From IMG/VR virus record IMGVR_UViG_3300032213_001568, positions 1 through 64,000 of that record: DNA of 64,000 nt; one strand, 5' to 3'. How positions within the stretch are numbered: the first letter of the stretch is position 1; every line of letters begins with the position of its first letter. Shown here piece after piece: positions 4,248 to 43,594 of the stretch. The notes under the pieces are model-generated. The model was not told the DNA's origin. It did no database searches and worked only from the letters and a program-made list of their open reading frames with translations. A program made the translations under genes and the position numbers. The DNA is from a virus (Duplodnaviria > Caudoviricetes).

Positions 4248-4259
4248 TATATATGTAAT

Positions 4260-5144: not shown

Positions 5145-5154
5145 AAATTTAATT

Positions 5155-11396: not shown

Positions 11397-11421
11397 AAGG
11401 GACTTTTTAGTCCCTTTTTTT
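11397..11421. terminator. Intrinsic terminator between convergent genes
   Basis: AAGGGACT-tttt-AGTCCCTT followed by T-run. Confidence 0.75.
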
Positions 11422-13894
11422 ATTTACATAATTCGTAAACATTCTGTTGAGAAGTCATATATAATGAATTCTTATTAGTGTCTACTGTTAATCCTAAAAT
11501 CAGTTTAGGTGAAACCGAATTAGTTTTTACAACTGTATTTGTACTCGCATTAATAACTGTAATAGTGTCATCATTATAGTTACCAACATATACATACGTA
11601 GAATCAAATGTTAATGTGTATGGTAAATCACCTACAGATATTGTTGAACCTGATGATAAAGTTATTGTATTATATGTTAAAACTTGGTCGTTAGCTCCTC
11701 TTAATACATATAATGTATTATTATTATAATTAACATAACATCTTGTCATATTTGTTTGACCTGTGATTGTGTTTGTAATTGTATTAGTGAATGTATCAAT
11801 TACTGAAATTGTATTTGCTCCTTGATTAAGTACAAATACTCTTCCTGTATTAACATCATAAGTTATAGACGTTGGATTAGTACCGACACTTATTGTTGAT
11901 AATACTGTGTTAGTTGGTGCATCAATTATTGACACACTATTTGTACTATAACTTGTGACGTAAATTCTATTATTGATTGAATCAAAAGTAGATTCTCGAG
12001 GGTTACTAACTAAAGAACCACCTATATATGAAAATGTTGAAGTTGTTTTATCAAAATCGACAGCGTAAACTATACCACCTAAATATCCTGTGGTAACAAT
12101 ATATAAGTAATTGTTTGTTGTGTCTAAAGTTAAATGAATAGGAACAGAACCTGAGAATAAACCGATTGATGTAATTAAATTATCATTATCCTGAGTATCT
12201 ATAATTCTAACGACCTGACCAACTGAATCTGCCACGAATAATAAACTATTTAACTCGTCATATACTGGACTATATAATGCGTTAGTATATCCTGATATGG
12301 TTGCAATAATACTTGGACAATTTAGTATTGGGGTTGGTGATGGTGTTGGTGTTAACGTTGGTGTTGGAGTTTGACTTGGTACTGGATTACAGAATTCACA
12401 ATCAAATAAATTACCACTTTCAATTGATTGAAGTATATTTGTTGGTGAACTTAAAATATCTGAAACATAAGTAACACATGATGATTTGCCATCAATTATT
12501 ACACTAAATGTTGCACCTGTAGAAAATGGGATATCTTCCGATACATAATACTTGTTAATGTTATTACAATCTTGTAAATATTTAGAAAATAAACTTGTAA
12601 ATTTAGATGAAAATGTATTAAATTCAGATGTACCTGTAACAATAACTCCTTTAACTGCGTTTGTTGGTGTAACACTTGGTGTCGGACTTGGTCCTGGGTA
12701 TGGATAATTAACTCCACTAAATGATAATGATTTATTATTACAAAGTGGGGTTGGTGATGGTGTGGTTGTTGGTGTTAAAGTTGGTGTTAAACTAGGTGTT
12801 GGTGTAGGTGTTGCTCCCGAAGTTATATTACAATCAAACACTGCTGTGAAATCAAAAGTATTACAAGAGTCAGTATTTGATGGTGTTGGTGTTGGACAAG
12901 AAGTACTTACATATGTATTATCTAAGTCTGGACAAACAGTATTACTACCTGTTTGTCCAAACAATTTACATTCACCATTTACACAAGATGATAAACACCA
13001 TCTTGTTTCACCTGTATTATAATAGATGTATGCTGAATTAATACCATCTGGTTTATAGAATACGTTATAACCATTAAATTGGTCGTAATTATAGTATATC
13101 CCATCATATTGGGTATACGCACTTAAATTTGTAAATACACAATAACTTGATTGAGGACATGCGGTGTAAATTGGTGATGGGGTGGGTGTATTTGTAGGTG
13201 TTACGGATAATGTTGGTGTTAAAGTTACACAAAATGTTGGAAGAGGTGTTTTAGTTACTGTAGGTGTTGGGGTCTTTGTTGGTGTAATCGATAATGTTGG
13301 TGTTGAAGTATTAGTTACTGTAGGTGTCGGTGTTTTTGTTTTAGTTACTGAAGGTGTTGGTGTTTGTGTTCTTGTTGGTGTGTTTGTTGGTGTTATTGAC
13401 AATGTAGGGGTAATAGTTGGTGTTGGTGTCGGTGTTTTTGTAACCGTTGCAGTAATTGAGACTGTTGGTGTAACTGTCGGTGTTTTAGTATTGGTTACTG
13501 AAGGTGTCGGTGTTTTAGTATTAGTGGGTGTTGTAGTTTTAGTTGGTGTGGTTGTTGGTGTTGTGGTTTTAGTTGGTGTTTGTGTTGGAGTTTTTGTCGG
13601 AGTAGTTGTTGGGGCGGGAGTGGACGTTGGGGTTGGAGTTGGACCTGGAACGCAAGGGTATATAGTTGTACATGCGGAACATGTTAAGTACGATGTTGTA
13701 TTTGCGCTAATTAAATTGAATTCAGTTGTTCCACTATTATAACCTGAGGTTATATATTGAGAACATCCGGTATATTTGTCGGTTATTAAATAATAGAAAG
13801 TATTTGCCGAAAATGTTCCCGCAGAATATGTTGTCTGTATTTGGAATGTAGTACCACTACAACAACCTGAAAATGAATAAAAATTTAATGCCAA
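11420..13894 (-). CDS. Mucin-like Pro-Thr-rich protein with C-terminal YVTN-type beta-propeller
   Basis: Long TPTPT tracts, Cys-rich linkers, repeats such as IYVTSYSTNSVSIID, VFVLNQGANTISVID, VYVGNYNDDTITVIN. Confidence 0.8.
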   Translation of the reverse strand: MALNFYSFSGCCSGTTFQIQTTYSAGTFSANTFYYLITDKYTGCSQYITSGYNSGTTEFNLISANTTSYLTCSACTTIYPCVPGPTPTPTSTPAPTTTPTKTPTQTPTKTTTPTTTPTKTTTPTNTKTPTPSVTNTKTPTVTPTVSITATVTKTPTPTPTITPTLSITPTNTPTRTQTPTPSVTKTKTPTPTVTNTSTPTLSITPTKTPTPTVTKTPLPTFCVTLTPTLSVTPTNTPTPSPIYTACPQSSYCVFTNLSAYTQYDGIYYNYDQFNGYNVFYKPDGINSAYIYYNTGETRWCLSSCVNGECKLFGQTGSNTVCPDLDNTYVSTSCPTPTPSNTDSCNTFDFTAVFDCNITSGATPTPTPSLTPTLTPTTTPSPTPLCNNKSLSFSGVNYPYPGPSPTPSVTPTNAVKGVIVTGTSEFNTFSSKFTSLFSKYLQDCNNINKYYVSEDIPFSTGATFSVIIDGKSSCVTYVSDILSSPTNILQSIESGNLFDCEFCNPVPSQTPTPTLTPTPSPTPILNCPSIIATISGYTNALYSPVYDELNSLLFVADSVGQVVRIIDTQDNDNLITSIGLFSGSVPIHLTLDTTNNYLYIVTTGYLGGIVYAVDFDKTTSTFSYIGGSLVSNPRESTFDSINNRIYVTSYSTNSVSIIDAPTNTVLSTISVGTNPTSITYDVNTGRVFVLNQGANTISVIDTFTNTITNTITGQTNMTRCYVNYNNNTLYVLRGANDQVLTYNTITLSSGSTISVGDLPYTLTFDSTYVYVGNYNDDTITVINASTNTVVKTNSVSPKLILGLTVDTNKNSLYMTSQQNVYELCK

Positions 13895-32556: not shown

Positions 32557-32629
32557 TGTGTATATTTTTTTTTGTAAAGATAATATATTCTATGGATTTA
32601 TGAAATAAATATTGTTATTTTTTTTAGGT

Positions 32630-35230
32630 ATGAAGAAAATATTATTTATAGTCCCACACCTATCTACTGGAGGACTACCACAGGTTACTACGAATAAGAT
32701 TCAACTTCTTAAAGACGATTATATTATAAAGTGTGTTGAATACGGATGTTATTCATGGGATTTTGTTGTTCAGAAGAACCGAATTAAGAATTTGATTGGG
32801 GAAGATAACCTTGTTACTTTATGGGACGATAAAAATGTTTTAATTGATTTTATTAATGATTTCCAACCTGATATCATATCAATGGAGGAGTTCCCTGAAT
32901 TTTTTATGGATAACAACATTACAAGACAAATTTATAGACAAAACCGACCATATAAAATATTTGAAACAACACATGACTCAAGTTTCAAACCAACATCTAA
33001 AGTTTGGTTTCCTGATAAATTTATTTTTGTTAGTGTGTTCAATGCTATTCAGTATTCAATGTTTGATATACCCTATGAGGTGATTGAATATCCTATTGAA
33101 AATCGAGATAAAAGAAAAGAACTCTTCCAAGAAAAACTTGGACTTGATAAAGGTTATAAACATGTTGTTAACGTCGGGTTATTCACTGAAAGAAAGAATC
33201 AAAAATACATTTTTGAAATTGCTCGTAAGTTAGAGAACTCTAAAATTAAATTTCATTTCATTGGTAACCAAGCGGATAACTTTAAAGGTTACTGGGAACC
33301 ATTGATGAATAACAAACCTGAGAACTGTATTGTTTGGGGTGAGAAGGATAATGTAAATGAATTTTTGGAAGCGTCCGATTTGTTTATGTTTCCATCTAAA
33401 GGTGATAGAAATAATAAAGAATTAAATCCAATAGCTATTAAGGAAGCCATTGAATATGGTATTCCTATGATGATGTATAACTTGGATGTGTATTGTGGGA
33501 AATATGATAAACTACCTCAGGTTACATTTTTAACTGGAGATATTGATAAAGATGTGAATAATATGATGGATGTATTAAATGTTGGTGGTATTGATTCCCT
33601 ATTCAACTTGGGTTTTAATGGGGATAATAATCAGATTACAATAACCTATAATGGAAACCAAAAATTTGATTTTAATGTAAGTATTAGAGACATGACTTCA
33701 AAAGCTCCGATGTATTGGTTTAATTTACCTTTGGAGTATCCAATATTTTACTGGACAATACCTATTCCAATTCATATTAAGAAATTCAAAGACAATACTA
33801 ATTTCAGAGGATTTTTAGTTGAGTTTTATGATTCTCAAACAAATGAGTTAGTTTTTGGTCAAGAGTTGATTGTTAATCCTAATTTTCATCCAAGAATCCC
33901 TGAATTTAAATTTAAACCTTTGGATTGTAATTATATTAATTATTATGAATTTTTTGTTGATAGATGTTTTGACGATTTAAAGTTAGAAAATCTTGATACA
34001 GTAATTGATATTGGTGCCAATGTTGGTTTGTTTGCAAAGTATATGTATACCATAAATGCTAAAAAAGTTATTTTAGTTGAAGCAAATCCATATTTACAGG
34101 AAAGTATTGAATATCATTTAGATAATGATTTGGAAAAATCTGTTATTTACATGAATCCTGTTTATAAAGAACATACCAAGATTGATTTTAGATTTTCAAA
34201 AGAAAACTCAACTATTGGTTCAAATGTTTTTGATGGTAATGTGGGAGAATATGGACAACTTAACAATCTAATTAGTTGTGATACAATTACAATTGATGAT
34301 ATATACAAAGATAATAACTACGGTAGAATATCTCTATTTAAATGTGATATTGAAGGTGGGGAGTATCCGATTTTTGAATCAATTACCGATGAACAAATTG
34401 GATTAGTTGACAGATTCATGGTTGAGTTTCACGAAAATACTAATGGTGAAATTAATATTATACTTGAAAAATTAGATAGAAATAATTTTGAGTATGACAT
34501 TATTGTTTATGAAATGGGTAGGAAAACTAAAGCCGATAAAAATGCTAAACATGGTGTTATTTTTGCTAAACCTAAGAATGTTAAATTAAGAAAACCTGGT
34601 ACTTTATCATCGTCAGTTTATGATGTAACAAAGAGTTTTGAAGAACGATTAGCGGAATATACAGGGGCACCCTATGCTGTTACTATTGATAACCAAAGTA
34701 ATGCTTTGTTCTTGGCTTTGTATTATGAAAAGATTACTGGTAAAACAATTAAAATACCAAGTAGAACATACCCTTCAGTTCCTTGTGAGATTATCCATGC
34801 CGGTGGTAAAGTTGAATTTGAACCTGTTTATGGTTCTACTCTTAAAGGACCTTATCAATTATCACCAACAAATGTTTGGGATTCAGCGTTAAGATTCACC
34901 AACGATATGTATATACCAGGAACTCATATGTGTTTATCATTTACGGGCCCGTATAAACACTTGAAACTAGGTAAGGGTGGTGCAATCCTAACTGATGACT
35001 TTGAGGCTTACAAGTGGTTTAAACGGGCAAGATACTCAGGTAGAAATGAAGTTTCATATCATGATGATAATTTTGACATGTTAGGATGGAATTTTTACAT
35101 GATGCCTGAAATCGCTTCAAGAGGTTTACTGCTTATGAATCAATTCTATAACATGGATGGTACACCTAAACACAATGAGGATTTAGAATTACCATATCCT
35201 GACTTATCAAAATTTGATATCTATAAATGA
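32630..35230 (+). CDS. Fusion of GT4 glycosyltransferase, FkbM methyltransferase and DegT-like PLP aminotransferase
   Basis: HLSTGG, VGLFTERKNQ, PIAIKEA (GT4); IDIGANVG, FKCDIEGGE (FkbM); FEERLAEYTG, DSA, LSFTGPYK..GKGG (DegT). Confidence 0.85.
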   Translation: MKKILFIVPHLSTGGLPQVTTNKIQLLKDDYIIKCVEYGCYSWDFVVQKNRIKNLIGEDNLVTLWDDKNVLIDFINDFQPDIISMEEFPEFFMDNNITRQIYRQNRPYKIFETTHDSSFKPTSKVWFPDKFIFVSVFNAIQYSMFDIPYEVIEYPIENRDKRKELFQEKLGLDKGYKHVVNVGLFTERKNQKYIFEIARKLENSKIKFHFIGNQADNFKGYWEPLMNNKPENCIVWGEKDNVNEFLEASDLFMFPSKGDRNNKELNPIAIKEAIEYGIPMMMYNLDVYCGKYDKLPQVTFLTGDIDKDVNNMMDVLNVGGIDSLFNLGFNGDNNQITITYNGNQKFDFNVSIRDMTSKAPMYWFNLPLEYPIFYWTIPIPIHIKKFKDNTNFRGFLVEFYDSQTNELVFGQELIVNPNFHPRIPEFKFKPLDCNYINYYEFFVDRCFDDLKLENLDTVIDIGANVGLFAKYMYTINAKKVILVEANPYLQESIEYHLDNDLEKSVIYMNPVYKEHTKIDFRFSKENSTIGSNVFDGNVGEYGQLNNLISCDTITIDDIYKDNNYGRISLFKCDIEGGEYPIFESITDEQIGLVDRFMVEFHENTNGEINIILEKLDRNNFEYDIIVYEMGRKTKADKNAKHGVIFAKPKNVKLRKPGTLSSSVYDVTKSFEERLAEYTGAPYAVTIDNQSNALFLALYYEKITGKTIKIPSRTYPSVPCEIIHAGGKVEFEPVYGSTLKGPYQLSPTNVWDSALRFTNDMYIPGTHMCLSFTGPYKHLKLGKGGAILTDDFEAYKWFKRARYSGRNEVSYHDDNFDMLGWNFYMMPEIASRGLLLMNQFYNMDGTPKHNEDLELPYPDLSKFDIYK

Positions 35231-35850
35231 TTGTAGGTTTCAACGAATATAAACATAAGTATGACTTTAATGTTACTGGTGTAATTCATGTTGGTGCTCA
35301 TGTTGGTCAAGAGTATGATGAATATATAAGAACATTTGGTGTAATACCAACATATTGGTTTGAACCTATACCACATGTATATAAAGAACTATCTAAAAAT
35401 TTAAATGGTAAACCTAACACATTTTATTATAATGTTGCGATAGGTGATAGAAATGGTATACACGAAATGTATCTTGATGAAGGTAATGGACAACAAAGTT
35501 CTTCATTATTAAAACCAAAGGAACATCAAAATTTTTACCCACATATTAAATTTAGTGAAGAGAATACTATTAATATTACATTAAGCACATTAGATTTTTA
35601 CAATATAACTTCTTGTAATGTTTTAGTTTTAGATACACAAGGATATGAGTTAAACTCTCTTAAAGGTTCAATTAATACTTTAAAGAATATTGATTATATA
35701 TTTACGGAGTTTAATTTGATTGAAATGTATGATGGTTGCCCATCTATTGAACAACTTGATGAGTTTTTATTACCATTTGGGTTCCAAAGACAAGAGACAT
35801 GGAATGTTGACGGTGTTTGGGGTGATGCATTTTATTTAAAAAGAATATGA
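35227..35850 (+). CDS. FkbM-family methyltransferase
   Basis: IHVGAHVGQE, FEP, LDTQGYE, WGDAFY. Confidence 0.85.
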   Translation: MIVGFNEYKHKYDFNVTGVIHVGAHVGQEYDEYIRTFGVIPTYWFEPIPHVYKELSKNLNGKPNTFYYNVAIGDRNGIHEMYLDEGNGQQSSSLLKPKEHQNFYPHIKFSEENTINITLSTLDFYNITSCNVLVLDTQGYELNSLKGSINTLKNIDYIFTEFNLIEMYDGCPSIEQLDEFLLPFGFQRQETWNVDGVWGDAFYLKRI

Positions 35851-36434
35851 TTAAGAAAGCGTTTATTGGTAATGGAGGGCATTTAAGAGAAGTAATTGCT
35901 CATACAAACTATGATGTAACTAGGTTTGTTGAAGATGAGTATTTCAAAGGGGAGGATAAAACATTACCATTATCACAATTCAATCCAAAAGAGTTCTATA
36001 TTATGATTGCAATTGCTGATAGTCAAGTTAGGTCAAGAATTCAAAAATCACTACCTGAAGATACTAAATATTTTTCATTCATCCATCCATCATCAATTTT
36101 ATTGGATAGAAATATTGTAATTGGTGAAGGTTCATTTATTGGTGCTAATTGTGTTATAACTACCAATGTTAAGATTGGTAATCATACTATTTTGAATAGA
36201 AATGTTAATATCGGACACGATGTTGTAATAGGTGATTGTTTTAGTGCTATGGCCGGTTCTGTTGTTTCAGGTAATGTTTTAATTGGTGATAATTGTTATA
36301 TGGGTAATAACTCATCAATAAGAGAAAAGATAACAATTTGTGATGATGTTATAATTGGAATGAATGGAAGTGTTGTTAAAGATATTGATAAACCTGGAAC
36401 TTATGTTGGGGTTCCTGTAAATAAAATAAAATAA
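35847..36434 (+). CDS. NeuD/PglD-like sugar acetyltransferase
   Basis: GNGGH, FIHPS, hexapeptide repeats, IGHD, YVGVP. Confidence 0.85.
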   Translation: MIKKAFIGNGGHLREVIAHTNYDVTRFVEDEYFKGEDKTLPLSQFNPKEFYIMIAIADSQVRSRIQKSLPEDTKYFSFIHPSSILLDRNIVIGEGSFIGANCVITTNVKIGNHTILNRNVNIGHDVVIGDCFSAMAGSVVSGNVLIGDNCYMGNNSSIREKITICDDVIIGMNGSVVKDIDKPGTYVGVPVNKIK

Positions 36435-38170
36435 TGGAAAAATTACTTTCGGTCATTGTATCGTCATATAATTTTGAGAAATACCTCAAGGAGTGTGTTG
36501 ATTCAATTTATAAACAAAAAATCACCTATGGTTTTCAGGTAGTAGTTAGAGATGATTGTTCAACAGACAATACTAAAGATGTTTTAGTTGAATTAAAAGA
36601 AAAGTATCCTGATTTAGTTATTTTAAATGGTAATGTTAATTTAGGGGCTCTTGAAAATATTAGAACTTTATTAAATTACTGTAAAACAAAATACATTGCA
36701 TATATTGATGGTGATGATTATTTTGATAATTATACAATCTTAAATGAAGAAGTTGAGTTTTTAGAAAACAGCCCAAATTATAGTATGGTTTGTACAGGAA
36801 CAAGATATTTGTATCCTGATGGTACCAAGATACCTACAGTTCCCGAATTGTTTATTAGTTCATTTCTTGACGATGTAACAACAAATGATTTATTAACTAT
36901 CAATCACGCATCTTTTGCAAGGGTATTTAGGAACATACCAAATCTAATAAAGGATTATTTTACAAATTTACCTTATGTTGATTGGCCGCTTAATTATGAA
37001 ATTAGTAAACATGGTTTAATTAAGTGTATTCATAAATGTGGTGGAATATATAGAATATCAAATGATGGTATGTTTTCAAATGTTTCAGAAGAGGAAAAAA
37101 ACAAAAAAAACATAATAGTTTCTAATGAACTCAAAAGACAAAATATTAAAGATGAGTTTAAAACAATAACAATAGTTGATTGTTTTATTCATAATGAAAA
37201 TGTTTTAAATAAGTTGGAGTTATGTGTTAATAACTTAAAAAAGTATAACCATACAATACTTCTTGTGTCTAATACTATTGTTCCTGAACATATATTAAAA
37301 ATTGTTGATTATCATTTATATAACTCAAATAACATTCTTTTTGAAGGTGAATACACTAATTCCGAACCAGTTATTTTTTGGAAAAACCTTGGTTCATTAA
37401 CAACTCATGAAGTTACAAATACAATACAAAAACATGGATTACCTGTTATGGTTAATTTGTTTAACTCATTAGATTTGTGTAAGTCATTTGGGTTTACACA
37501 TTTCCAAAGAATTGAAGTTGATGATTTATATAGTGAAGAAGGTTATGAATATATGAAAACTGTACCAGTGATTTGTTCTACTCAAAACAAAAAGGGAATG
37601 TTTTATTTTAATGAAGGTAGAGATGTTTCGTTCCATTATTTTTATTGTGAAATAGAATACTTCCAACAGATAATTAATAGGATTAATTGTGAGGAAGATT
37701 ATAAAAATTATTTACAAAATAATGGGTATGGTACTGACTTTATAAATGTTGAAAAATATCTTTATGATAACATAAATAGAAAAGATTATGGTTTAATAAT
37801 TCGAAAAGACGGAGAAGTTGATATGAACACTGATTTCCAAAATACCTTATGGAATACGGAAACAACTGTTAGTAATGTATCTTCAAAATTCAAAGGATGT
37901 TCTACAAAACTTTATAATATTTCAGGACAAAATTCTATAATGTTATTATCCTACAATTACAATCATTTTAGGTCGGAAAGAAAAATAGTTGTTAATTATA
38001 TTGATGGTAGTTTAGAAACTATATACCACGGGTTAGAAAATTATGGACATTGGTCATTTAATATTTTTGAAAATAAAGTTGAAAAAATATCAGTGTACGA
38101 TACTCAAGATGATGAATTTTTATATGATTTTATAAATAAAAATATTCTTGATTACATTATTTTTTCATGA
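36434..38170 (+). CDS. GT2 glycosyltransferase fused to a second unknown domain
   Basis: SVIVSSYN, DDCSTD, YIDGDDY. Confidence 0.8.
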   Translation: MEKLLSVIVSSYNFEKYLKECVDSIYKQKITYGFQVVVRDDCSTDNTKDVLVELKEKYPDLVILNGNVNLGALENIRTLLNYCKTKYIAYIDGDDYFDNYTILNEEVEFLENSPNYSMVCTGTRYLYPDGTKIPTVPELFISSFLDDVTTNDLLTINHASFARVFRNIPNLIKDYFTNLPYVDWPLNYEISKHGLIKCIHKCGGIYRISNDGMFSNVSEEEKNKKNIIVSNELKRQNIKDEFKTITIVDCFIHNENVLNKLELCVNNLKKYNHTILLVSNTIVPEHILKIVDYHLYNSNNILFEGEYTNSEPVIFWKNLGSLTTHEVTNTIQKHGLPVMVNLFNSLDLCKSFGFTHFQRIEVDDLYSEEGYEYMKTVPVICSTQNKKGMFYFNEGRDVSFHYFYCEIEYFQQIINRINCEEDYKNYLQNNGYGTDFINVEKYLYDNINRKDYGLIIRKDGEVDMNTDFQNTLWNTETTVSNVSSKFKGCSTKLYNISGQNSIMLLSYNYNHFRSERKIVVNYIDGSLETIYHGLENYGHWSFNIFENKVEKISVYDTQDDEFLYDFINKNILDYIIFS

Positions 38171-38934
38171 TTGGATTAACTATAACAACTTGTAAACGAA
38201 TTGATTTATTTGAAAAAACAATAATTTCTTTTACCAAAGAATGTGAAGATTTAAATTTAATTGATATCATAATCCACTACGATGATTCTTCGTCTTTAGA
38301 GGACAGAAATAAAATGTTTTCTTTACTGAATAGATTGTTTCCTGAAACTTTAATAGTATCTAAAAGATTTAACGTTAACTCATTTAATACTAGTAGAAGA
38401 CATTTAGAAATAATGAAAAAATGGAAAGAAGATATTAAATTTTTTAATATTGATTATGTTTTTCATTTGGAAGATGATTGGTTTTTTGAAAATCCATTTA
38501 ACCTTCATGAGGGTATTGAGTTATTAAAAAATAATGAAGATGTTGGTATGGTAGGATTTTCATGGAAGAAAAAAATATTCCCAATGGAATTATTCCAACC
38601 TAAATTAATTGGTAATTTTTGGGAATGGTATTATTCTGATAAACATTATTTAAATGAACCGTTGTTTAATGACACTGTTGAAGAAGATTTACATGTAGTT
38701 AAGGGATTGTGGATTAAATATATTAATTGGCCATACTTTGGTTTTAGACCGGCAATTCATGATGTTAATAAATTAAATCAAATTGATACTTTTAATGATA
38801 ACATGGATTCTTTTGAATTAGAATTTGCAATAAGATTCTCAAAAAGATTCAAATCGTTTTTACATTCAGAAAGAATTTGTTATCATATTGGTGATGAAAA
38901 TTCATCATATAATTTAAATAATTCTTTAAGATAA
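38167..38934 (+). CDS. GT-A fold glycosyltransferase
   Basis: TTCKR, DDSS, YVFHLEDDW. Confidence 0.7.
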   Translation: MIGLTITTCKRIDLFEKTIISFTKECEDLNLIDIIIHYDDSSSLEDRNKMFSLLNRLFPETLIVSKRFNVNSFNTSRRHLEIMKKWKEDIKFFNIDYVFHLEDDWFFENPFNLHEGIELLKNNEDVGMVGFSWKKKIFPMELFQPKLIGNFWEWYYSDKHYLNEPLFNDTVEEDLHVVKGLWIKYINWPYFGFRPAIHDVNKLNQIDTFNDNMDSFELEFAIRFSKRFKSFLHSERICYHIGDENSSYNLNNSLR

Positions 38935-39506
38935 TGGATTACAATTTTTTATGGGTACCTAAGACCACTTATCATAGGTCAGCACAAAGTCAGTTTGTTG
39001 TTGATGTTTTTCCTAAAATATTAAAAAATTTTGAATTAATAATTGAAATTGGAACATTTACAGGGGCGTTCACTTTATGGTTGTCTGAAAATAAATCTGA
39101 TAATTGTAAAATAATTTCTTACGATATTAATCCTGATTATTGTGAAGTTAATAATCTTAAAGATACTGAATTAAGAATTGGAGATTGTTTTGATATTGAT
39201 GTTATGAAAGATATTCGTGATTTAATTAACAATTCGGGTAGAACTATTTTTTTATGTGATGGAGGGGATAAGGAACTTGAGTTTAGATTATATTCAAAGT
39301 ACTTGAAAAAGGATGATGTTATAATGCTTCACGATTATTCACATAGTGATGAAGAGTATAATATTATTAAAGAAAAAATAAATTGGCCAACAAATTCAGA
39401 ATCACACTATAAAAATATTGAAAGATACTTACCTGAACTTAATTTGACTACATTTATGTATGATGATTTTAAACAAGTTTTATGGGGTTCGTTTATAAAA
39501 AATTGA
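38934..39506 (+). CDS. Class I SAM-dependent methyltransferase
   Basis: IEIGTFTG, CDGG, LHDY. Confidence 0.7.
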   Translation: MDYNFLWVPKTTYHRSAQSQFVVDVFPKILKNFELIIEIGTFTGAFTLWLSENKSDNCKIISYDINPDYCEVNNLKDTELRIGDCFDIDVMKDIRDLINNSGRTIFLCDGGDKELEFRLYSKYLKKDDVIMLHDYSHSDEEYNIIKEKINWPTNSESHYKNIERYLPELNLTTFMYDDFKQVLWGSFIKN

Positions 39507-39507
39507 T

Positions 39508-40227
39508 ATGAATTATAAGATTAAATTAGTTCATTTACAGACAACACAGAATGAACATAGAGAAAAACTATCACGAAAATCTATACAACAAGTAATACCT
39601 TACGGTATTGAATATGTTTTACATCAGAACGAGTTATATACTTCGTTACCTCCAGTTCATACAAGTGTTAGACCACATAATGTTAGAATCGGTAAGTATG
39701 AAGATGTTAATGACCCTGAATATGGGAACGCATTAACTCCAGCTCACTACGGATGTTTTGAAGCTTTTAAAATTGGTATCCTATCAGAATTTGATAATGA
39801 TTTAGATTTCTTAATTGTCTGTGAGGGTGATTGTATAATAGAAGTACCTATTGAAGAATTTATAGATAAAGTTAATTGGGTATGTGGTATTGTTAATCAG
39901 GAAGATATTTCTTATTTTTCATTTGGTGATACTAAAACTTTAGATTATGGGTGGCATCAATCTGACGTTGTTAGAGAAATACCGAACCAAGATTTATTGT
40001 TTATTACTAATAAAATAATTGGTTTACAGTGTATTATGTTTTCAAAAAAATCACGTAAAACAATTATGAACCAGTTAAGAACACATAGATGGGATTGTGC
40101 TGACACATTTTTTAATATAATATGTGCTGAACAGAGATTAACTATGGGTGTTTTAAAGAAAAGAATAACAACCCAAGCGGATGGGGAATCATTCATAGAT
40201 AAAGAATATAAAGTTTTTACAAAATAA
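39508..40227 (+). CDS. GT25-like glycosyltransferase
   Basis: LTPAHYGCF, LIVCEGD. Confidence 0.55.
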   Translation: MNYKIKLVHLQTTQNEHREKLSRKSIQQVIPYGIEYVLHQNELYTSLPPVHTSVRPHNVRIGKYEDVNDPEYGNALTPAHYGCFEAFKIGILSEFDNDLDFLIVCEGDCIIEVPIEEFIDKVNWVCGIVNQEDISYFSFGDTKTLDYGWHQSDVVREIPNQDLLFITNKIIGLQCIMFSKKSRKTIMNQLRTHRWDCADTFFNIICAEQRLTMGVLKKRITTQADGESFIDKEYKVFTK

Positions 40228-40228
40228 T

Positions 40229-40774
40229 ATGGCACACGAACAACAAAAGAATTTTTTTAAAAGAGTTAAAGATAAATATCCAAAATATTTTACAGATGTA
40301 AAAGTTTTAGATATTGGTTCTTTGGATATAAATGGTTCAATACGGGATTTATTTGATTATCCATTTTATTATGTTGGGTTAGATTTAGCTGAGGGTAAAA
40401 ATGTTGATGTAATTTGTCCTGGGCATTTATATGACTCAGGATTTGAATTTGATGTTGTTTCATCTGGAGAATGTTTTGAACATGATATGTATTATGCAAG
40501 AACAATACAGAATATGATTAGACTTCTTAAGTGTGGAGGTTTAATGGTTTTTACTTGTGCGTCAACAGGTAGACCTGAACACGGTACTTTAAGGACTACA
40601 CCTGAAAACGCTCCTTTTTTAAGTGGTATTAGTGAAAAGTGGGGAAATTATTATAAAAATTTAACTGAAGATGATATAAGGTCGGTTATTGATGTTAATG
40701 ATATCTTTAGTGATTTTGGATTTGAATATGAACCAGTAACTTGTGATTTATATTTTTGGGGGATAAAAAAATGA
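40229..40774 (+). CDS. Class I SAM-dependent methyltransferase (type 11-like)
   Basis: VLDIGSLDING, FDVVSSGECFEH. Confidence 0.8.
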   Translation: MAHEQQKNFFKRVKDKYPKYFTDVKVLDIGSLDINGSIRDLFDYPFYYVGLDLAEGKNVDVICPGHLYDSGFEFDVVSSGECFEHDMYYARTIQNMIRLLKCGGLMVFTCASTGRPEHGTLRTTPENAPFLSGISEKWGNYYKNLTEDDIRSVIDVNDIFSDFGFEYEPVTCDLYFWGIKK

Positions 40775-41466
40775 TTGATGTTGATGTGATTTGTCTGACA
40801 AATACAACTTCTGATGATTTGTATTGGATGACTCGTCGTACATTAACTACCATACACGATTCGGAAAAAGATTATAAATTTCATATTCATTTGATTGAGA
40901 CAAATTCTGATAGTAAATATGACTATTCAGATATTGTTGAAAATTATGTAAAACCAAATGAAAAATTTAATTACAATAGATTTTTAAATCACTCATATCC
41001 ATATGTAAAACATGATTGGGTATTAATTACAAATAATGATGTAAGATACGAAAGAGGATGGTTTTCAAAAATAATTGAAGTTTACACTAAAAGACCTGAT
41101 GTTGAATCTTTTTCACCTAAATGTCCAATTTTATATTCTAAATATTTTTACGATGATTTCTTAGGTGGTGATTTAGATTTTCATGAAAGTGTTGGTACTA
41201 GTGTTCATTTAATGGGATGGTCATTAGTTATGAAAAAAAGAGTTTTTGATATTGTTTATCCTTGGGACGAAAATTTTTATATGTATTACCAAGATAATGA
41301 TTACGCTGAAATTCTATTAAAGAATAATATTAAACATGGTTTGGTTAGGGACTCAATTGCAACTCACTTAGAATCACAAACTATAAAACATAAATTTAAT
41401 TCAAATACAATTGATAATCTTAAAGTAAAAAATTATTTTTATCAAAAATGGGGAAAGGAGATTTAA
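40771..41466 (+). CDS. GT2-like glycosyltransferase
   Basis: FNYNRFLN, ITNND, WDENFYMYYQDND. Confidence 0.75.
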   Translation: MIDVDVICLTNTTSDDLYWMTRRTLTTIHDSEKDYKFHIHLIETNSDSKYDYSDIVENYVKPNEKFNYNRFLNHSYPYVKHDWVLITNNDVRYERGWFSKIIEVYTKRPDVESFSPKCPILYSKYFYDDFLGGDLDFHESVGTSVHLMGWSLVMKKRVFDIVYPWDENFYMYYQDNDYAEILLKNNIKHGLVRDSIATHLESQTIKHKFNSNTIDNLKVKNYFYQKWGKEI

Positions 41467-41467
41467 T

Positions 41468-43594
41468 ATGAAAATTACACAAGTAACACCTGGAATTATT
41501 ACAATACCACCTAACGGATGGGGAGCGGTCGAAAAAGTAATATGGGAATATTACAACAATATTAAAGAGTTAGGTTACCAATGTGACATAAAATATCTTA
41601 ATGAGGTAGATACTAATAGTAGTGATATTATTCATATTCACATGGCTAATTTAGCAATTGATGCTGCTAACAAAGGAATACCCTACATTTTTTCATTACA
41701 CGACCACCACGTTGTTTATTATGGTAAGGACTCATCTAACTACCAACAAAATTTAGAGGCGATTAAAAGGTCTGTGGTATCTTTTACACATGCTGAGTTT
41801 TTAGTTGATTACTTTGATGAAACTGATAAGTTGTTCTACCTATCACATGGTGTTAATACAGAGTTCTTTAAGAATGACAAACCGAAAAGAAGTGAACATA
41901 AATTATTATGTTTAGCGAACAATGGTATTGGGGGAGATTCAACGTATGATAGAAAGGGATTTAGATATGCAATTGAAGCGGCAATTAAATTAGATTTACC
42001 TATTACAGTTGCCGGTCCTGAAAATAATAGAATATTCTTTGAACATCATAATGACTTATTAAATTATGATAAGTTAACTTTAATGTTTTCAAATCCAAAC
42101 GAAGAACAAATATTAGAATTATATAAAAGTCATTCTATATTCTTACATCCTTCTATGTTAGAGGCCGGTCACCCTAATCTAACATTATTAGAAGCAGTAT
42201 CTTGTAATATGCCAGTTGTTGGTACTTACTTAGGTTCACAAACGATAGAAGGAATGGTTGTGGTTGAAAGAGATGTAAATCAAATAGTTAGTGGTGTTAA
42301 ACAAATCATTGATAATTACGATTTATATTTAAGTAACACTGAATTAGATAGACAAAATTATGATTGGAGTATTATTACCAAGAGAATGGTTAGAATTTAT
42401 GAAGACCTGATTAACAGTAGAAAAAATTTGAATAGTCTTGAGACTAAACAAAGATTTGATAAAGTATTTGAGAATACTGAAATAAAACCAAAAGAGATGG
42501 TTGAAAAAATTGAAGTGATTAATCACTACATCAACGGAGCATTAGTAGAAATTAAAGGTAATACTGATAAGAAATATTTGGTTGAGTTTTGGAACCAAAA
42601 TGGTGATTGTGAATATCGTGAGGAGATTGGGTGTAATATGTGGGTTAGATTAAGTAAGAAGTATTTTGATGAATACACATTGAAAATTTACTCTGAAGGT
42701 AATTTAATCAGTGAAAAGAAATACAACGCTGAAAACAAACGAGTTTATATTGCATTAGATTCAAAATCTTTGGGTGATACATTTGCTTGGGTACCTTACG
42801 CTGAAGAATTTAGAAAGAAACATAACTGTAAAGTTATCTGTTCAACATTCTTTAACGATTTGTTTGTAAAACAATATCCTGAAATACAATTTGTTCCACC
42901 TGGAAGCACGGTTGATAACCTATATGCTATGTATGAGATAGGTTGGTTCTACAATGGTGATAATGTTAAAACTGATAGACACCCAAGTGATTTTAAATTA
43001 GGACCATTACAAAAAACTGCTACAGACATCTTAGGTTTGGAATACAAGGAGGTAAAACCTTTAATCAAAAATCCTAACAAGTTAAAAAAGAAAAGAGTTG
43101 GACTTGGTATACACTCAACCGCTCAATCAAAATACTGGAACAACCCAAATGGGTGGCAAGAGATTACTGATTATCTAATATCTCTTGGTTATGAGGTTAT
43201 TATCTATTCAAAAGAGGAAGATGGGTATATGGGTAATTACTATCCTAAAGGCGCTAAACAAAACCCACCAGGTTCCATCTATAAATTGATTGAAGAATTA
43301 TCTACCTGTGAATTCTTCATAGGTATATCAAGTGGTATATCATGGGTTACTTGGGCTTTGGACATCCCAACAGTATTAATATCAGGATTTACTGAAGAGT
43401 TTAATGAGCCTTATGATAATGTTTATAAGGTTAGTGCTCCTGAAAATACTTGTAGAGGATGTGCTAATAAATTTAGATTAGACCCGGGTGATTGGAATTG
43501 GTGTCCAATAAATAAGGGAAATGATAAGATATTTGAATGTTCTAAAAAGATAACATCTGATATGGTAAAAGAACAAATCGTTAAAATAATTTAA
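41468..43594 (+). CDS. GT4 glycosyltransferase fused to an Aah/TibC-type autotransporter O-heptosyltransferase domain
   Basis: PPNGWGAVE, EAGHPNLTLLEA (GT4); SKSLGDTFAWVPY, FIGISSGISW, CRGC...WNWCP...FECSKKIT. Confidence 0.85.
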   Translation: MKITQVTPGIITIPPNGWGAVEKVIWEYYNNIKELGYQCDIKYLNEVDTNSSDIIHIHMANLAIDAANKGIPYIFSLHDHHVVYYGKDSSNYQQNLEAIKRSVVSFTHAEFLVDYFDETDKLFYLSHGVNTEFFKNDKPKRSEHKLLCLANNGIGGDSTYDRKGFRYAIEAAIKLDLPITVAGPENNRIFFEHHNDLLNYDKLTLMFSNPNEEQILELYKSHSIFLHPSMLEAGHPNLTLLEAVSCNMPVVGTYLGSQTIEGMVVVERDVNQIVSGVKQIIDNYDLYLSNTELDRQNYDWSIITKRMVRIYEDLINSRKNLNSLETKQRFDKVFENTEIKPKEMVEKIEVINHYINGALVEIKGNTDKKYLVEFWNQNGDCEYREEIGCNMWVRLSKKYFDEYTLKIYSEGNLISEKKYNAENKRVYIALDSKSLGDTFAWVPYAEEFRKKHNCKVICSTFFNDLFVKQYPEIQFVPPGSTVDNLYAMYEIGWFYNGDNVKTDRHPSDFKLGPLQKTATDILGLEYKEVKPLIKNPNKLKKKRVGLGIHSTAQSKYWNNPNGWQEITDYLISLGYEVIIYSKEEDGYMGNYYPKGAKQNPPGSIYKLIEELSTCEFFIGISSGISWVTWALDIPTVLISGFTEEFNEPYDNVYKVSAPENTCRGCANKFRLDPGDWNWCPINKGNDKIFECSKKITSDMVKEQIVKII

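What the first reader, a model, noticed from the sequence alone, without database searches (positions are those of the whole stretch)
32630..43594. Phage-encoded protein O-glycosylation cluster, probably decorating Ser/Thr-rich virion fibres
Seen: ten co-oriented, tightly packed genes with about seven glycosyltransferase domains, four methyltransferase domains, a DegT aminotransferase and a PglD/NeuD acetyltransferase, plus rfbB at 63508. The same window encodes extreme Ser/Thr-rich acceptor-like proteins (1-2697, 6082-6381, 11420-13894). Known: dehydratase then DegT then acetyltransferase makes N-acetamido-deoxy sugars, and FkbM enzymes O-methylate glycans. Inference: the phage builds its own methylated/acetylated glycan coat. 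Alternatives are host surface conversion or DNA hypermodification.
Basis: partly seen in the sequence, partly recalled or inferred. Interest (0 to 1): 0.8.

Follow-up and report, generated by a model that had tools for sequence, protein, structure and literature searches.

The report
Phage glycosylation cluster for serine-collagen fibres
A large uncultured phage carries a ten-gene sugar-building operon whose last enzyme is a true relative of the bacterial enzyme that sugar-coats adhesins, and it most likely decorates the phage's own giant serine-rich collagen-like protein, though no sugar has yet been seen.

Summary
Ten co-oriented, overlapping genes (32612/32630-43594) encode about seven glycosyltransferase domains, four methyltransferase domains, a half-size DegT aminotransferase and a NeuD/VioB-type acetyltransferase. 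RmlB lies at 63508, and RmlA lies outside the window.

The "GT9" half of the last gene is a TibC/Aah-type protein serine O-glycosyltransferase (TIGR04414, 262 bits against a cut-off of 200; PDB 4RAP, E 2e-53). Its catalytic Asp and four iron-finger Cys are invariant.

None of the ten proteins has a membrane segment, and no lipid-carrier initiating enzyme was found.

The gene at 1-2697 is the last 898 codons of a proline-free (Gly-Ser/Thr-Ser)n protein of about 4770 residues. In three contigs of a different phage backbone, the same cassette starts about 700 bp after such a gene.

Across dereplicated phage loci, Ser/Thr-rich Gly-X-Y repeats lie near TibC-like genes in 20 of 58 lineages, against 0 of 25 controls. 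Exceptions exist.

Best reading (about 0.65): cytoplasmic O-glycosylation of the phage's own Ser/Thr-rich proteins. That these proteins sit in the virion, what the glycan is and which donor is used are all inferred.

This scan has noted the same theme on other DNA (71 notes). I found no paper describing it.

The parts
1..2697 (+). Last 898 codons of a giant proline-free (Gly-Ser/Thr-Ser)n collagen-like gene, cut by the contig end. It is the proposed main acceptor.
   Evidence: Pfam Collagen at E 7e-121; translation; composition. The ortholog in the close relative G002 is 4766 aa, with a 207-aa N-terminal globular part.
2734..3162 (+). 142-aa ORF of unknown function, conserved directly after the collagen-like gene.
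   Evidence: No Pfam family. 63% identical, in the same position, in G002.
3342..6072 (+). Three paralogous glycine-rich proteins (3342-4247, 4260-5144, 5155-6072). They may be fibre or adhesin parts; this is inferred.
   Evidence: Pfam Gly_rich_2 at 8e-8, 9e-7 and 3e-13; alignment A4. A weak PDB hit to 'tail wing brush gp33' at E 0.019. The fold model failed, with pLDDT 46.5.
6082..6381 (+). Small Cys-containing domain with a (Pro-Thr)n tail. Candidate second acceptor.
   Evidence: Translation. Its N-domain recurs (33% identity) at the head of PT-rich proteins beside TibC-like multi-GT genes in L030 and L035.
11420..13894 (-). 824-aa protein with long PT-rich linkers and a beta-propeller-like C-terminus. 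Candidate acceptor.
   Evidence: Translation; weak beta-propeller Pfam hits; phrog_15511.
32612..35230 (+). g1, a three-domain enzyme: GT4 glycosyltransferase (about aa 1-330), FkbM methyltransferase (aa 463-627) and a miniature DegT-like PLP aminotransferase (aa 665-872).
   Evidence: Pfam and NCBIfam. PDB alignment shows the SFxxxK...GxGG lysine motif. The domains are separate genes, or split by insertions, in relatives.
35227..35850 (+). g2, FkbM-family methyltransferase.
   Evidence: Pfam 61 bits against a cut-off of 22.7; TIGR01444.
35847..36434 (+). g3, NeuD/PglB/VioB-type sugar N-acetyltransferase.
   Evidence: Hexapeptide repeats plus PglD_N. TIGR03570 at 149 bits, under the cut-off of 160.8. 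Adjacent to the mini-DegT gene in many viral contigs.
36434..38170 (+). g4, GT2 glycosyltransferase (aa 1-165) plus about 410 aa that remain unassigned.
   Evidence: Pfam 80 bits. The C-terminal part has no PDB sequence match. Its aa 245-423 is fused to the TibC-like domain in L026 and L028.
38167..38934 (+). g5, probable GT-A glycosyltransferase.
   Evidence: No library family. DDxS and EDD motifs are invariant in 9 homologues. ESM Atlas lead to GT2. PDB profile search found nothing.
38934..39506 (+). g6, weak Rossmann-type methyltransferase.
   Evidence: FtsJ at 23.9 bits against a cut-off of 24.1, plus other methyltransferase families below cut-off.
39508..40227 (+). g7, GT-A (GT25-like) glycosyltransferase. 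It is the commonest neighbour of the TibC-like gene in other phages.
   Evidence: Model pLDDT 82.6. Foldseek PDB top hits are GT-A enzymes, including COLGALT1 at E 7e-7 and TMq 0.6. ESM Atlas lead to PF01755. Homologues lie just upstream of the TibC-like gene in about 19 loci.
40229..40774 (+). g8, SAM-dependent methyltransferase.
   Evidence: phrog_32762 at E 9e-57. Pfam hits are below cut-off.
40756..41466 (+). g9, probable GT2-like glycosyltransferase.
   Evidence: phrog_22332 glycosyltransferase at 2e-11. Pfam GT2 at 17 bits, below cut-off.
41468..43594 (+). g10, a GT4 domain (aa about 40-320) fused to a TibC/Aah-type protein O-glycosyltransferase (aa 369-707; nt 42572-43588).
   Evidence: TIGR04414 at 262 bits against a cut-off of 200. 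PDB 4RAP TibC at E 2.4e-53. Catalytic Asp and four Cys are invariant in 20 homologues.
63508..64000 (+). RmlB, dTDP-glucose 4,6-dehydratase. The gene runs to 64476, beyond the window.
   Evidence: TIGR01181 at 404 bits against a cut-off of 365; Pfam. RmlA-like gene at G000:102802-103668.

Best explanation
The ten-gene operon is a cytoplasmic protein O-glycosylation system of a jumbo phage. The contig is 110 kb and is estimated at 38% of the genome.

Proposed sequence of events (only the enzyme-family assignments are shown; everything else is inferred):
1. Phage RmlA and RmlB make dTDP-4-keto-6-deoxyglucose.
2. The miniature DegT domain of g1 aminates it.
3. g3 N-acetylates it, giving an acetamido-dideoxyhexose donor.
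4. The TibC-like domain of g10 puts the first sugar directly on Ser/Thr hydroxyls of phage-encoded low-complexity proteins.
5. The soluble GT4, GT2 and GT25-like enzymes (g10-N, g1-N, g4, g5, g7, g9) extend the chain.
6. The FkbM and SAM methyltransferases (g1, g2, g6, g8) cap it.

The main acceptor would be the proline-free (Gly-Ser/Thr-Ser)n collagen-like protein of about 4770 residues, whose tail is 1-2697. The Pro-Thr-rich proteins may be further acceptors.

The glycoprotein is probably a long virion fibre, and the sugars may be needed for it to fold or stay soluble.

Shown: enzyme family memberships, lack of membrane segments, and gene linkage across phages. Inferred: the acceptor, the donor, the order of steps and the virion location.
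For: (1) g10 C-terminal half belongs to the TibC/Aah family.
- TIGR04414 equivalog at 262 bits against a cut-off of 200.
- PDB TibC 4RAP at E 2.4e-53 over 313 residues.
- Conservation in 20 phage homologues: TibC's catalytic Asp-110 20/20, Lys-230 20/20, Trp-305 20/20, Thr-226 19/20, and each of Cys-339/342/358/370 20/20. Residue roles come from PMC4358343, passages and section 11.
- TibC is a cytoplasmic enzyme that glycosylates serines of a repetitive protein.

(2) No lipid-carrier route is visible.
- None of the ten proteins has a 19-residue hydrophobic window of 1.6 or more (maximum 1.37).
- No Bac_transf initiating enzyme in 0 of 4 records G000-G003.

(3) Linkage to the collagen-like gene.
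- In three contigs (L045, L052, L054), a collagen-like ORF with at least 3094 aa in L054, running on beyond the locus start, ends about 700 nt before g1 on the same strand.
- That record (G004) shares only the ten cluster genes (83-100% aa identity) and the repeats with this genome. The cassette therefore travels with such a gene across backbones.

(4) Co-occurrence in relatives.
- All 5 cluster-bearing relatives G001-G005 carry both collagen-like frames and a TibC-like gene.
- In G002, a PF11397 'GlcNAc' glycosyltransferase, an HtrL-like gene and a GT2-like gene lie directly upstream of the 4766-aa gene.

(5) Wider sample, dereplicated.
- Ser/Thr-rich Gly-X-Y runs within the fetched flanks: 20 of 58 TibC-bearing lineages against 0 of 25 control lineages (Fisher p 2e-4).
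- Any 60-aa window with at least 50% Ser+Thr: 32/58 against 2/25 (p 3e-5).
- In bacterial and MAG contigs, 18 of the 35 closest homologues have such repeats nearby, against 0 of 45 more distant ones.

(6) Domain shuffling. The TibC-like domain is fused to g1-type GT4 or to the g4 middle domain in other phages, and g7 homologues directly precede it in about 19 loci.

(7) Donor branch. RmlA, RmlB, mini-DegT and the acetyltransferase are all present. The mini-DegT and acetyltransferase genes are adjacent in many contigs.

(8) A cultured example. Microcystis phage Mel-JY01 has a collagen-like ORF of at least 1016 aa, then an annotated 'structural protein', then a TibC-like fusion protein, all near the terminase and prohead protease genes.
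Against: - No glycan, glycoprotein or virion data exist for this phage or any relative.
- In this genome the operon lies 29.9 kb from the collagen-like gene. Its neighbours are DnaJ, a sigma factor, an amidase and Dam, which are not structural genes.
- Strict adjacency holds in only 20 of 58 lineages.
- Two near-complete jumbo records break the pairing. G006 (94% complete) has a TibC-like gene and no collagen match. G007 (100% complete) has two TibC-like genes, only a sub-threshold collagen match, and no Ser/Thr-rich neighbour. G009 has collagen but no TibC-like gene.
- The residue aligned with TibC Arg-286, which contacts adenine and is required for activity in TibC, is Ile, Met or Phe in 20 of 20 phage homologues. 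The donor, and even activity, are therefore uncertain.
- No GmhA-type heptose gene was found in 0 of 5 records.
- The globular parts of the collagen-like protein matched no structural family or solved structure.
- The lineages compared are related, and the control set is small and was recruited through one gene.
Confidence: 0.65

Rival explanations
1. Host-surface conversion. The cluster would build or alter a host outer polysaccharide (O-antigen or capsule) during infection or pseudolysogeny, to block superinfection. This is how polymorphic glycosyltransferase clusters of jumbo cyanophages have been read.
For: Iyer et al. 2021 (PMC7824862, passages) give this reading for variable GT clusters of jumbo phages. 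The cluster content here is strongly polymorphic between near-identical phages. PHROG labels g4 'GtrB-like O-antigen conversion' and g9 and g10 'moron/auxiliary'. The operon sits among non-structural genes.
Against: No membrane segment in any of the ten proteins. No initiating phosphoglycosyltransferase in 0 of 4 records. No flippase- or polymerase-like multi-span protein in the operon. The last enzyme belongs to a protein-glycosylating family. The cassette abuts a Ser/Thr collagen-like gene in another backbone.
Confidence: 0.12
2. Protein glycosylation of a different target. The TibC-like enzyme would modify other phage proteins (the Pro-Thr-rich proteins, or capsid or tail proteins) or host proteins, and the collagen-like protein would not be the substrate or not be a virion part.
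For: TibC-like genes occur without collagen-like genes in G006 and G007. PT-rich proteins with the 6082-type N-domain sit beside TibC-like multi-GT genes in L030 and L035. 38 of 58 lineages lack Gly-X-Y Ser/Thr runs nearby. No structural annotation was found for the collagen-like protein.
Against: The direct adjacency in G004-type contigs and in many distant loci involves Gly-X-Y Ser/Thr repeats specifically. Every one of the 5 cluster-bearing relatives has such genes.
Confidence: 0.18
3. DNA hypermodification. The sugars would be attached to modified bases of the phage genome.
For: Phage glycosyltransferases that hypermodify DNA are known (bioRxiv 10.1101/2023.12.21.572611, abstract seen in the listing). 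The genome has a thymidylate-synthase-like gene with a long insertion and several DNA methyltransferases.
Against: The ThyA-like gene scores 320 bits over the whole model, as an ordinary ThyA would, and is absent from G001-G003. No Tet/JBP match in 0 of 4 records, but that search's controls were silent, so this is weak. Seven GT domains with a protein-glycosylating terminal enzyme, and linkage to repeat proteins, do not fit base modification.
Confidence: 0.03

Closest known systems
TibC-TibA and Aah-AIDA-I of E. coli (bacterial autotransporter heptosyltransferases, BAHT; TIGR04414; PDB 4RAP/4RB4; PMC4358343)
   Same: The g10 C-terminal half scores above the family's curated cut-off. It keeps the catalytic Asp, the phosphate- and sugar-binding Thr, Lys and Trp, and the four iron-finger Cys. 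It is soluble. It is genetically linked to a highly repetitive Ser-rich protein.
   Different: The acceptor would be a Gly-X-Y collagen-like repeat rather than a beta-helical autotransporter. The adenine-contacting Arg-286 is replaced in 20 of 20 phage homologues, so the donor may not be ADP-heptose. The domain is fused to a GT4 domain and embedded in an operon with elongating GTs, methyltransferases and an amino-sugar branch. It is phage-encoded.
Mimivirus fibre glycosylation cluster (R141 dehydratase, L136 aminotransferase, L142 acetyltransferase, GTs; PMC4691112, passages read)
   Same: It is a virus-encoded 4,6-dehydratase, PLP aminotransferase and N-acetyltransferase branch with glycosyltransferases in one cluster. 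There the sugar (viosamine) is also O-methylated. The virus has collagen-like proteins and glycosylated fibres.
   Different: Mimivirus is a eukaryotic giant virus using UDP-sugars. Its collagen is glycosylated on hydroxylysine by L230. It has no TibC-type enzyme. Here the pathway is dTDP-type (RmlA, RmlB) and the aminotransferase is half-size.
Mycobacteriophage virion glycosylation (recalled: Freeman et al. 2023, not read; 24 papers carry the phrase, listing)
   Same: Phage-encoded glycosyltransferases O-glycosylate the phage's own virion proteins in the cytoplasm.
   Different: From recall, those systems have one to a few GTs acting on C-terminal tails of capsid or tail-tube proteins. They have no TibC-type enzyme, no collagen-like acceptor and no sugar-nucleotide branch.
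BclA exosporium glycoprotein and anthrose pathway of Bacillus (recalled; Daubenspeck 2004 seen only as a reference entry; listing)
   Same: A collagen-like Gly-X-Thr repeat protein forms surface filaments. It is O-glycosylated on Thr with an oligosaccharide ending in a methylated 4-acylamino-4,6-dideoxyhexose, made by dehydratase, aminotransferase and acyltransferase steps.
   Different: It is a bacterial spore protein whose repeats contain Pro. The glycosyltransferases are different. It is not a virus.
Variable glycosyltransferase clusters of jumbo cyanophages read as capsule or O-antigen modification (PMC7824862)
   Same: These are polymorphic multi-GT clusters with nucleotide-sugar enzymes in jumbo phages.
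   Different: That reading assumes a host polysaccharide target. Here the terminal enzyme is of a protein-glycosylating family and no lipid-carrier machinery is present.

Membership tests
BAHT (TibC/Aah protein O-heptosyltransferases, TIGR04414) | Profile score above the curated equivalog cut-off | tested here: met
   262.1 bits against a cut-off of 200, aa 369-707 on model positions 28-374. 264 bits in the six-frame search. PDB TibC at E 2.4e-53.
BAHT (TibC/Aah protein O-heptosyltransferases, TIGR04414) | Catalytic base Asp-110 and donor-binding Thr-226, Lys-230 and Trp-305 | tested here: met
   Asp 20/20, Thr 19/20 (one Ser), Lys 20/20 and Trp 20/20 in alignment A1. Residue roles from PMC4358343 section 11.
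BAHT (TibC/Aah protein O-heptosyltransferases, TIGR04414) | Iron-finger motif with four Cys (TibC 339, 342, 358, 370) | tested here: met
   All four align with Cys in the window protein and are invariant in 20 of 20 homologues.
BAHT (TibC/Aah protein O-heptosyltransferases, TIGR04414) | Arg-286 contacting adenine N1, the basis of ADP-sugar specificity | tested here: not met
   The aligned position is Ile in the window protein, and Ile 9, Met 9, Phe 2 among 20 homologues. This rests on the ungapped HMMER pairwise alignment.
BAHT (TibC/Aah protein O-heptosyltransferases, TIGR04414) | Transfers heptose from ADP-heptose to Ser of an autotransporter passenger; dodecameric ring | not testable with these tools
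   No GmhA-type SIS domain in 0 of 5 related records. Activity, donor and oligomer state need experiments.
DegT/DnrJ/EryC1 sugar aminotransferases (PF01041) | Profile score above cut-off and the PLP-binding lysine motif | tested here: met
   47.3 bits against a cut-off of 19.8. The SF..K...G.GG motif aligns with that of solved DegT enzymes.
DegT/DnrJ/EryC1 sugar aminotransferases (PF01041) | Full two-domain fold of about 360-390 residues | tested here: not met
   The domain is about 208 residues. Only profile positions 23-90 and a second short stretch align. Stand-alone homologues are 209-217 aa. Fold not modelled.
NeuD/PglB/VioB sugar N-acetyltransferases (TIGR03570) | Profile score above cut-off; left-handed beta-helix hexapeptide repeats with a PglD-type N-domain | tested here: inconclusive
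   149.3 bits against a cut-off of 160.8. Hexapep 59 bits is above cut-off. PglD_N 22.8 against 23.4 is just below.
dTDP-glucose 4,6-dehydratase RmlB (TIGR01181) | Equivalog score above cut-off | tested here: met
   404.5 bits against a cut-off of 365.1.
Collagen triple-helix repeat proteins (PF01391) | Long uninterrupted Gly-X-Y register | tested here: met
   394 bits. In G002, 4293 of 4766 residues lie in Gly-X-Y runs of 5 or more triplets.
Collagen triple-helix repeat proteins (PF01391) | Known stabilisers: Pro/Hyp or Lys-Gly-Asp/Glu salt-bridge triplets | tested here: not met
   Window part: 0 Pro, 0 Lys, 0 Glu. G002 ortholog: 9 Pro and 53 charged residues in 4766. Stabiliser roles from PMC11923368 passages. 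Whether a triple helix forms cannot be tested here.
Lipid-carrier (Und-P) O-antigen/capsule pathways (rival) | Initiating phosphoglycosyltransferase, flippase or polymerase, and membrane-anchored GTs | tested here: not met
   PF02397 found in 0 of 4 records, with controls ringing in 9 of 14. No hydrophobic segment in the ten proteins. WecA-type PF00953 and Wzx/Wzy families were not searched.
Virus-encoded virion glycosylation systems (Mimivirus, chlorovirus and mycobacteriophage type) | Glycan demonstrated on a virion protein | not testable with these tools
   No virion or glycan data. No RNA run was listed.

The most novel reading that the evidence does not exclude
The sugars are not mere decoration. 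They would be what lets a proline-free, charge-free (Gly-Ser/Thr-Ser)n chain of more than 4000 residues fold into a fibre that could exceed a micrometre.

- A ring-forming TibC-like enzyme, with a changed nucleotide pocket, would thread and densely O-glycosylate the chain in the cytoplasm.
- The swappable, hypervariable ten-gene cassette would set a glycan 'serotype' of the fibre.
- That cassette is exchanged between unrelated phage backbones together with the fibre gene.

This would be a bacterial-virus counterpart of the Mimivirus fibre coat, and a new way of stabilising collagen.
Probability: 0.25. Interest if true: 0.85.

Novelty: new variant of a known kind. Interest (0 to 1): 0.72.

Why it matters
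Self-glycosylation of virions is established for giant eukaryotic viruses and, from recall, for a few mycobacteriophages. Multi-GT clusters of large phages are usually read as host-surface modification.

A TibC-type protein O-glycosyltransferase tied to giant serine-collagen genes would change that picture in four ways:
- It would reassign many such clusters.
- It would give the adhesin-glycosylating enzyme family a second, viral role.
- It would offer a natural test of whether O-glycans can replace proline and salt bridges in holding a collagen helix together.
- It would point to glycan-coated fibres as a variable phage surface that could matter for host recognition, particle stability or sticking to polysaccharide matrices.

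A cultured phage with the same gene trio (Microcystis phage Mel-JY01) makes this directly testable.

Tried and rejected
- Near-identity DNA search of the cluster against GenBank phages: no match.
- Promoter and terminator scan of 31800-44800: fewer promoter-like sites than in shuffles and terminator-like sites at the chance level, so not used.
- PHROG, Pfam and PDB sequence searches found nothing informative for: the 687-aa and 733-aa neighbours; the collagen protein's N-terminal, internal and C-terminal globular parts; the g4 C-terminal 408 aa; and the g5 profile.
- AlphaFold model of a Gly_rich_2 paralog: pLDDT 46.5, unusable and not searched.
- ESM Atlas for g5 and g7 gave only leads: GT2 share 20%, GT25 share 52%.
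- I first guessed that the 147-aa gene near RmlA might be a 3,4-ketoisomerase. It is a 4HBT thioesterase, so the guess was rejected.
- The GT upstream of the collagen gene in G002 is not a second TibC-like gene. There is one copy per close relative.
- Tet/JBP search: no hit, but the controls were silent, so this carries little weight.
- Sequencing runs: no RNA holder was listed.
- Complex prediction was not used, because enzyme-substrate pairs are poorly served by it.
- Literature: 'bacteriophage' + 'heptosyltransferase' + 'collagen-like' returned 0 papers. 'TibC' + 'phage' returned 22 papers, of which the 12 listed were unrelated by title. 'Mel-JY01' returned 0 papers.
- Supplementary files were not consulted. 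The supplements of PMC7824862 may list jumbo-phage GT clusters relevant to the rival reading.

Full report
WHAT THE WINDOW IS. The window is the first 64 kb of a 110,526-bp linear IMG/VR virus record that CheckV puts at 38% complete, so the phage is a jumbo phage of roughly 290 kb. G+C is about 30%. Phage hallmarks in the window are Mre11/Rad50-like genes, a primase, a sigma-70 factor, two Dam-type methylases, an amidase and DnaJ. A protein with a type IX secretion C-terminal sorting domain (62180-63202) hints at a Bacteroidota host. The nearest cultured phage with shared genes infects Microcystis, so the host is left open.

THE OBSERVATION. Ten + strand ORFs run from 32612 (TTG; first ATG at 32630) to 43594, with overlaps or 1-nt gaps at every junction. 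Family searches give the following.
- g1: GT4, FkbM and DegT domains in one protein.
- g2: FkbM.
- g3: hexapeptide acetyltransferase of the NeuD/PglB/VioB type (149 bits, just under the cut-off of 160.8).
- g4: GT2 plus about 410 unassigned residues.
- g6: a weak Rossmann methyltransferase.
- g8: a SAM methyltransferase (PHROG 9e-57).
- g9: a weak GT2 (PHROG glycosyltransferase 2e-11).
- g10: GT4 plus a domain that Pfam calls GT9.
- g7, which matched no library, modelled well (pLDDT 82.6) as a GT-A fold. The closest solved chains include the GT25 collagen galactosyltransferase COLGALT1 (E 7e-7, TMq 0.6).
- g5 keeps invariant DDxS and EDD motifs in 9 of 9 homologues. It is a probable GT-A enzyme on that evidence and an Atlas lead only.
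RmlB at 63508-64476 is above its equivalog cut-off. An RmlA-like gene lies outside the window at G000:102802-103668. The three Ser/Thr-rich proteins are as described.

THE KEY ENZYME. The C-terminal half of g10 (aa 369-707) is not a lipopolysaccharide heptosyltransferase. It scores 262 bits on TIGR04414, the Aah/TibC 'autotransporter strand-loop-strand O-heptosyltransferase' equivalog, whose cut-off is 200. It aligns with the solved TibC structure at E 2.4e-53. According to PMC4358343 (passages and section 11), TibC is a soluble cytoplasmic enzyme that hyperglycosylates serines of a repetitive adhesin. Asp-110 is its catalytic base. Thr-226, Lys-230, Trp-305 and Arg-286 bind the donor. Cys-339, 342, 358 and 370 hold an iron that is needed for the dodecamer and for activity. 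In an alignment of 20 phage homologues at 34-53% identity to the window protein, the Asp, Lys, Trp and all four Cys are invariant and the Thr is kept in 19. The position of Arg-286, which reads the adenine of ADP-heptose, is Ile, Met or Phe in all 20. No GmhA-type heptose gene occurs in five related records. I therefore file the domain as a member of the TibC/Aah family by sequence, but I do not claim that it transfers heptose.

NO LIPID-CARRIER ROUTE. None of the ten proteins has a hydrophobic 19-residue window of 1.6 or more (maximum 1.37). No Bac_transf initiating enzyme occurs in the window's record or in three relatives, one of them complete (0 of 4; the controls rang in 9 of 14). WecA-type and Wzx/Wzy families were not searched. 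This argues against the published reading of variable GT clusters in jumbo phages as host capsule or O-antigen modification (PMC7824862, passages). It does not exclude use of host machinery.

THE ACCEPTOR CANDIDATE. The frame at 1-2697 is 48.7% Ser, 33.1% Gly and 10.2% Thr, with no Pro, Lys or Glu. It is the only frame that stays open through the non-repetitive parts in relatives. In the close relative G002, whose neighbouring genes are 54-100% identical, the gene has the following features.
- It is 4766 codons long.
- It has a 207-residue N-terminal globular part and two internal globular inserts.
- 4293 residues lie in Gly-X-Y runs.
- It has 2746 Ser+Thr, 9 Pro and 53 charged residues.
At the collagen rise per residue that I recall (about 0.29 nm), this would be a rod of more than a micrometre. 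The chain lacks both known stabilisers of triple helices, namely Pro/Hyp and Lys-Gly-Asp/Glu salt bridges. PMC11923368 (passages) records that (Gly-Pro-Thr)10 is a random coil unless its threonines are galactosylated. That is the basis of my bolder reading that the sugars are structurally required.

LINKAGE.
(a) In this genome the operon lies 29.9 kb downstream of the collagen-like gene, and 28 kb downstream in G002.
(b) In three contigs (L045, L052, L054), a collagen-like ORF ends about 700 nt before g1 on the same strand. In L054 it has at least 3094 aa and runs beyond the locus start. The frame is 3416 aa in the whole record. That record, G004, shares with this genome only the ten cluster genes (83-100% amino-acid identity) and the repeats. 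Its 20 kb upstream and 10 kb downstream have no match to any of the 143 ORFs I called. They have only one 580-nt, 68% stretch in G001/G002. The window's record is incomplete, which weakens this somewhat. Still, the simplest reading is a cassette exchanged between different backbones that sits beside the fibre gene in one of them.
(c) All five cluster-bearing records G001-G005 have collagen-like frames and one or two TibC-like genes.
(d) In G002 the genes just upstream of the giant gene include a PF11397 'GlcNAc' glycosyltransferase (233 bits), an HtrL-like gene and a GT2-like gene. They also include a ConA-like protein matching a PHROG 'virion structural protein', and a PT-rich protein. From memory, PF11397 is the family of cytoplasmic polypeptide GlcNAc-transferases. 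I did not test this.

WIDER TEST AND ITS LIMITS. Scans of viral contigs with g10, g1 and the 20-sequence TibC-like alignment gave 192 loci. I dropped the window's own loci (L001-L005) and the two loci fetched on purpose over the G002 fibre gene (L119, L120). I then merged loci sharing at least 2 kb at 85% or more. This left 58 lineages with a TibC-like hit and 25 without. The 25 were recruited through the mini-DegT gene. The results were as follows.
- Ser/Thr-rich Gly-X-Y runs (at least 12 triplets, at least 50% Ser+Thr) in the fetched flanks: 20 of 58 against 0 of 25 (one-sided Fisher p 2e-4).
- Any 60-residue window with at least 50% Ser+Thr: 32 of 58 against 2 of 25 (p 3e-5).
Among 80 bacterial or MAG loci, 18 of the 35 closest homologues had such runs, usually within 2 kb. 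None of the 45 more distant ones did. The lineages are related, so these p-values overstate independence. Two controls (L072, L075) come from records that carry a TibC-like gene elsewhere.

There are clear exceptions.
- G006 (94% complete) has a TibC-like gene and no collagen match.
- G007 (100% complete) has two TibC-like genes, only a 25.8-bit collagen match, and no Ser/Thr-rich neighbour.
- G009 has collagen but no TibC-like gene.
The enzyme family is therefore enriched beside such repeats but not bound to them.

MODULARITY. Between phages whose flanks are 90-99% identical, g2, g3, g5, g6, g8 and g9 come and go. The mini-DegT domain is split from g1 by insertions. In L070, a g7 homologue lies between the two parts of g1. 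g1, g4, g7 and g10 are the constant core in the close family. In other phages the TibC-like domain is fused to the g1-type GT4 or to the g4 middle domain. g7 homologues (23-29% identity) directly precede it in about 19 loci. This is the pattern expected of enzymes that build one variable glycan.

MOST LIKELY MECHANISM. RmlA and RmlB make dTDP-4-keto-6-deoxyglucose. The mini-DegT aminates it and g3 acetylates it. The TibC-like domain starts chains on Ser/Thr of the repeat protein in the cytoplasm. The soluble GTs extend the chains and the methyltransferases cap them. The family assignments are shown. The acceptor, the donor of the first step, the order of steps, the sugar identities and the virion location are inferred. 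The position at which the sugar is aminated is unknown.

A CULTURED HANDLE. Only 4 of 50,697 GenBank phage records hold a homologue of the TibC-like domain. One is Microcystis phage Mel-JY01. There the + strand frame 2..3049 is a (Gly-Thr/Ser-Ser)n ORF of at least 1016 aa. The deposited annotation covers it with antisense 'hypothetical' CDSs. It is followed by an annotated 'structural protein' and a 1226-aa 'methyltransferase FkbM' whose last 365 residues are the TibC-like domain. All of this is close to the terminase and prohead protease genes. I found no paper on this phage.

COMPARISON AND NOVELTY. The system works like TibC-TibA or Aah-AIDA-I at the first step. It works like the Mimivirus fibre cluster in its sugar-nucleotide branch (R141, L136, L142, with O-methylated N-acetylviosamine; PMC4691112 passages). 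From recall, it also resembles BclA/anthrose and mycobacteriophage virion glycosylation. Searches for the combination in print returned nothing. This scan has already noted the same theme on other DNA (71 notes in at least 63 genomes). I reached the TibC reading before seeing those notes, and they are not independent evidence.

What this window adds:
- the full ten-gene context with an amino-sugar branch;
- the cassette exchange between backbones;
- the Arg-286 replacement;
- the counter-examples;
- the Mel-JY01 handle.

VERDICT. This is a new variant of a known kind.

Noticed in passing
window 34604-35227 (C-terminal domain of g1); loci L072-L115: A miniature DegT-family aminotransferase of about 209 aa, against about 370 for the family, that keeps the PLP-lysine motif. 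It is a very large and very conserved family: 7938 of the 8000 scored candidates at E<=1e-5, mostly 209-aa stand-alone proteins at 77-85% identity. JGI names them dTDP-4-amino-4,6-dideoxygalactose transaminase. The gene usually sits next to a NeuD/VioB-type acetyltransferase in viral contigs. Whether such a reduced fold is active is unknown.
   Followed up: partly
window 62180-63202: A phage-encoded protein with a signal-like N-terminus, a MopE-type metal-binding motif, a PKD domain and a type IX secretion C-terminal sorting domain. It is also present in G001. This hints at a Bacteroidota host and at a phage protein exported by the host's T9SS.
   Followed up: partly
L278 (GenBank PP395634, Microcystis phage Mel-JY01) 1-3052: The deposited annotation places 'hypothetical protein' CDSs on the antisense strand (1-651, 739-2298) over what is a + strand collagen-like (Gly-Thr/Ser-Ser)n ORF of at least 1016 aa. 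That ORF runs into the annotated CDS at 2519-3052.
   Followed up: yes
L119:2129-3373 (G002, just upstream of the collagen-like gene): A PF11397 'GlcNAc' glycosyltransferase (233 bits; phrog_24687 at E 2e-168), plus HtrL-like and GT2-like genes, form a second GT group beside the giant gene in the close relative. The matching region of this genome lies beyond the contig end.
   Followed up: partly
window 31253-32173: A full-length DnaJ (J domain, zinc-finger and C-terminal domains) sits directly upstream of the operon and is conserved there in close relatives. It could be a chaperone for the repeat protein. Not tested.
   Followed up: no
G000:98528-99676 (outside the window): A thymidylate-synthase-like gene of 382 aa, matching the whole 266-position model across an insertion of about 115 residues. 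It is absent from G001-G003.
   Followed up: partly
G000:100820-105351 (outside the window): RmlA lies in a group with a PALP-family PLP enzyme, a DUF2452 protein, a glutamine-synthetase-like protein and a 4HBT thioesterase. The thioesterase homologue co-occurs with the mini-DegT in L072, L110 and L112.
   Followed up: no
L116, L117, L118 (records G006, G007): Near-complete jumbo phage records carry TibC-like genes fused or adjacent to g1-type GT4 domains, but have no collagen-like or strongly Ser/Thr-rich gene nearby. The acceptor there is unknown.
   Followed up: partly
window 61242-62087 and G000:105957-106868(-): Two glycoside hydrolase family 19 (chitinase class I-like) proteins, one with a peptidoglycan-binding domain. 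They are probable endolysins.
   Followed up: no
window 20516-21184, 44683-45522, 56056-56913: Three DNA methyltransferase genes: two D12-class adenine methylases and one phrog_67 type.
   Followed up: no
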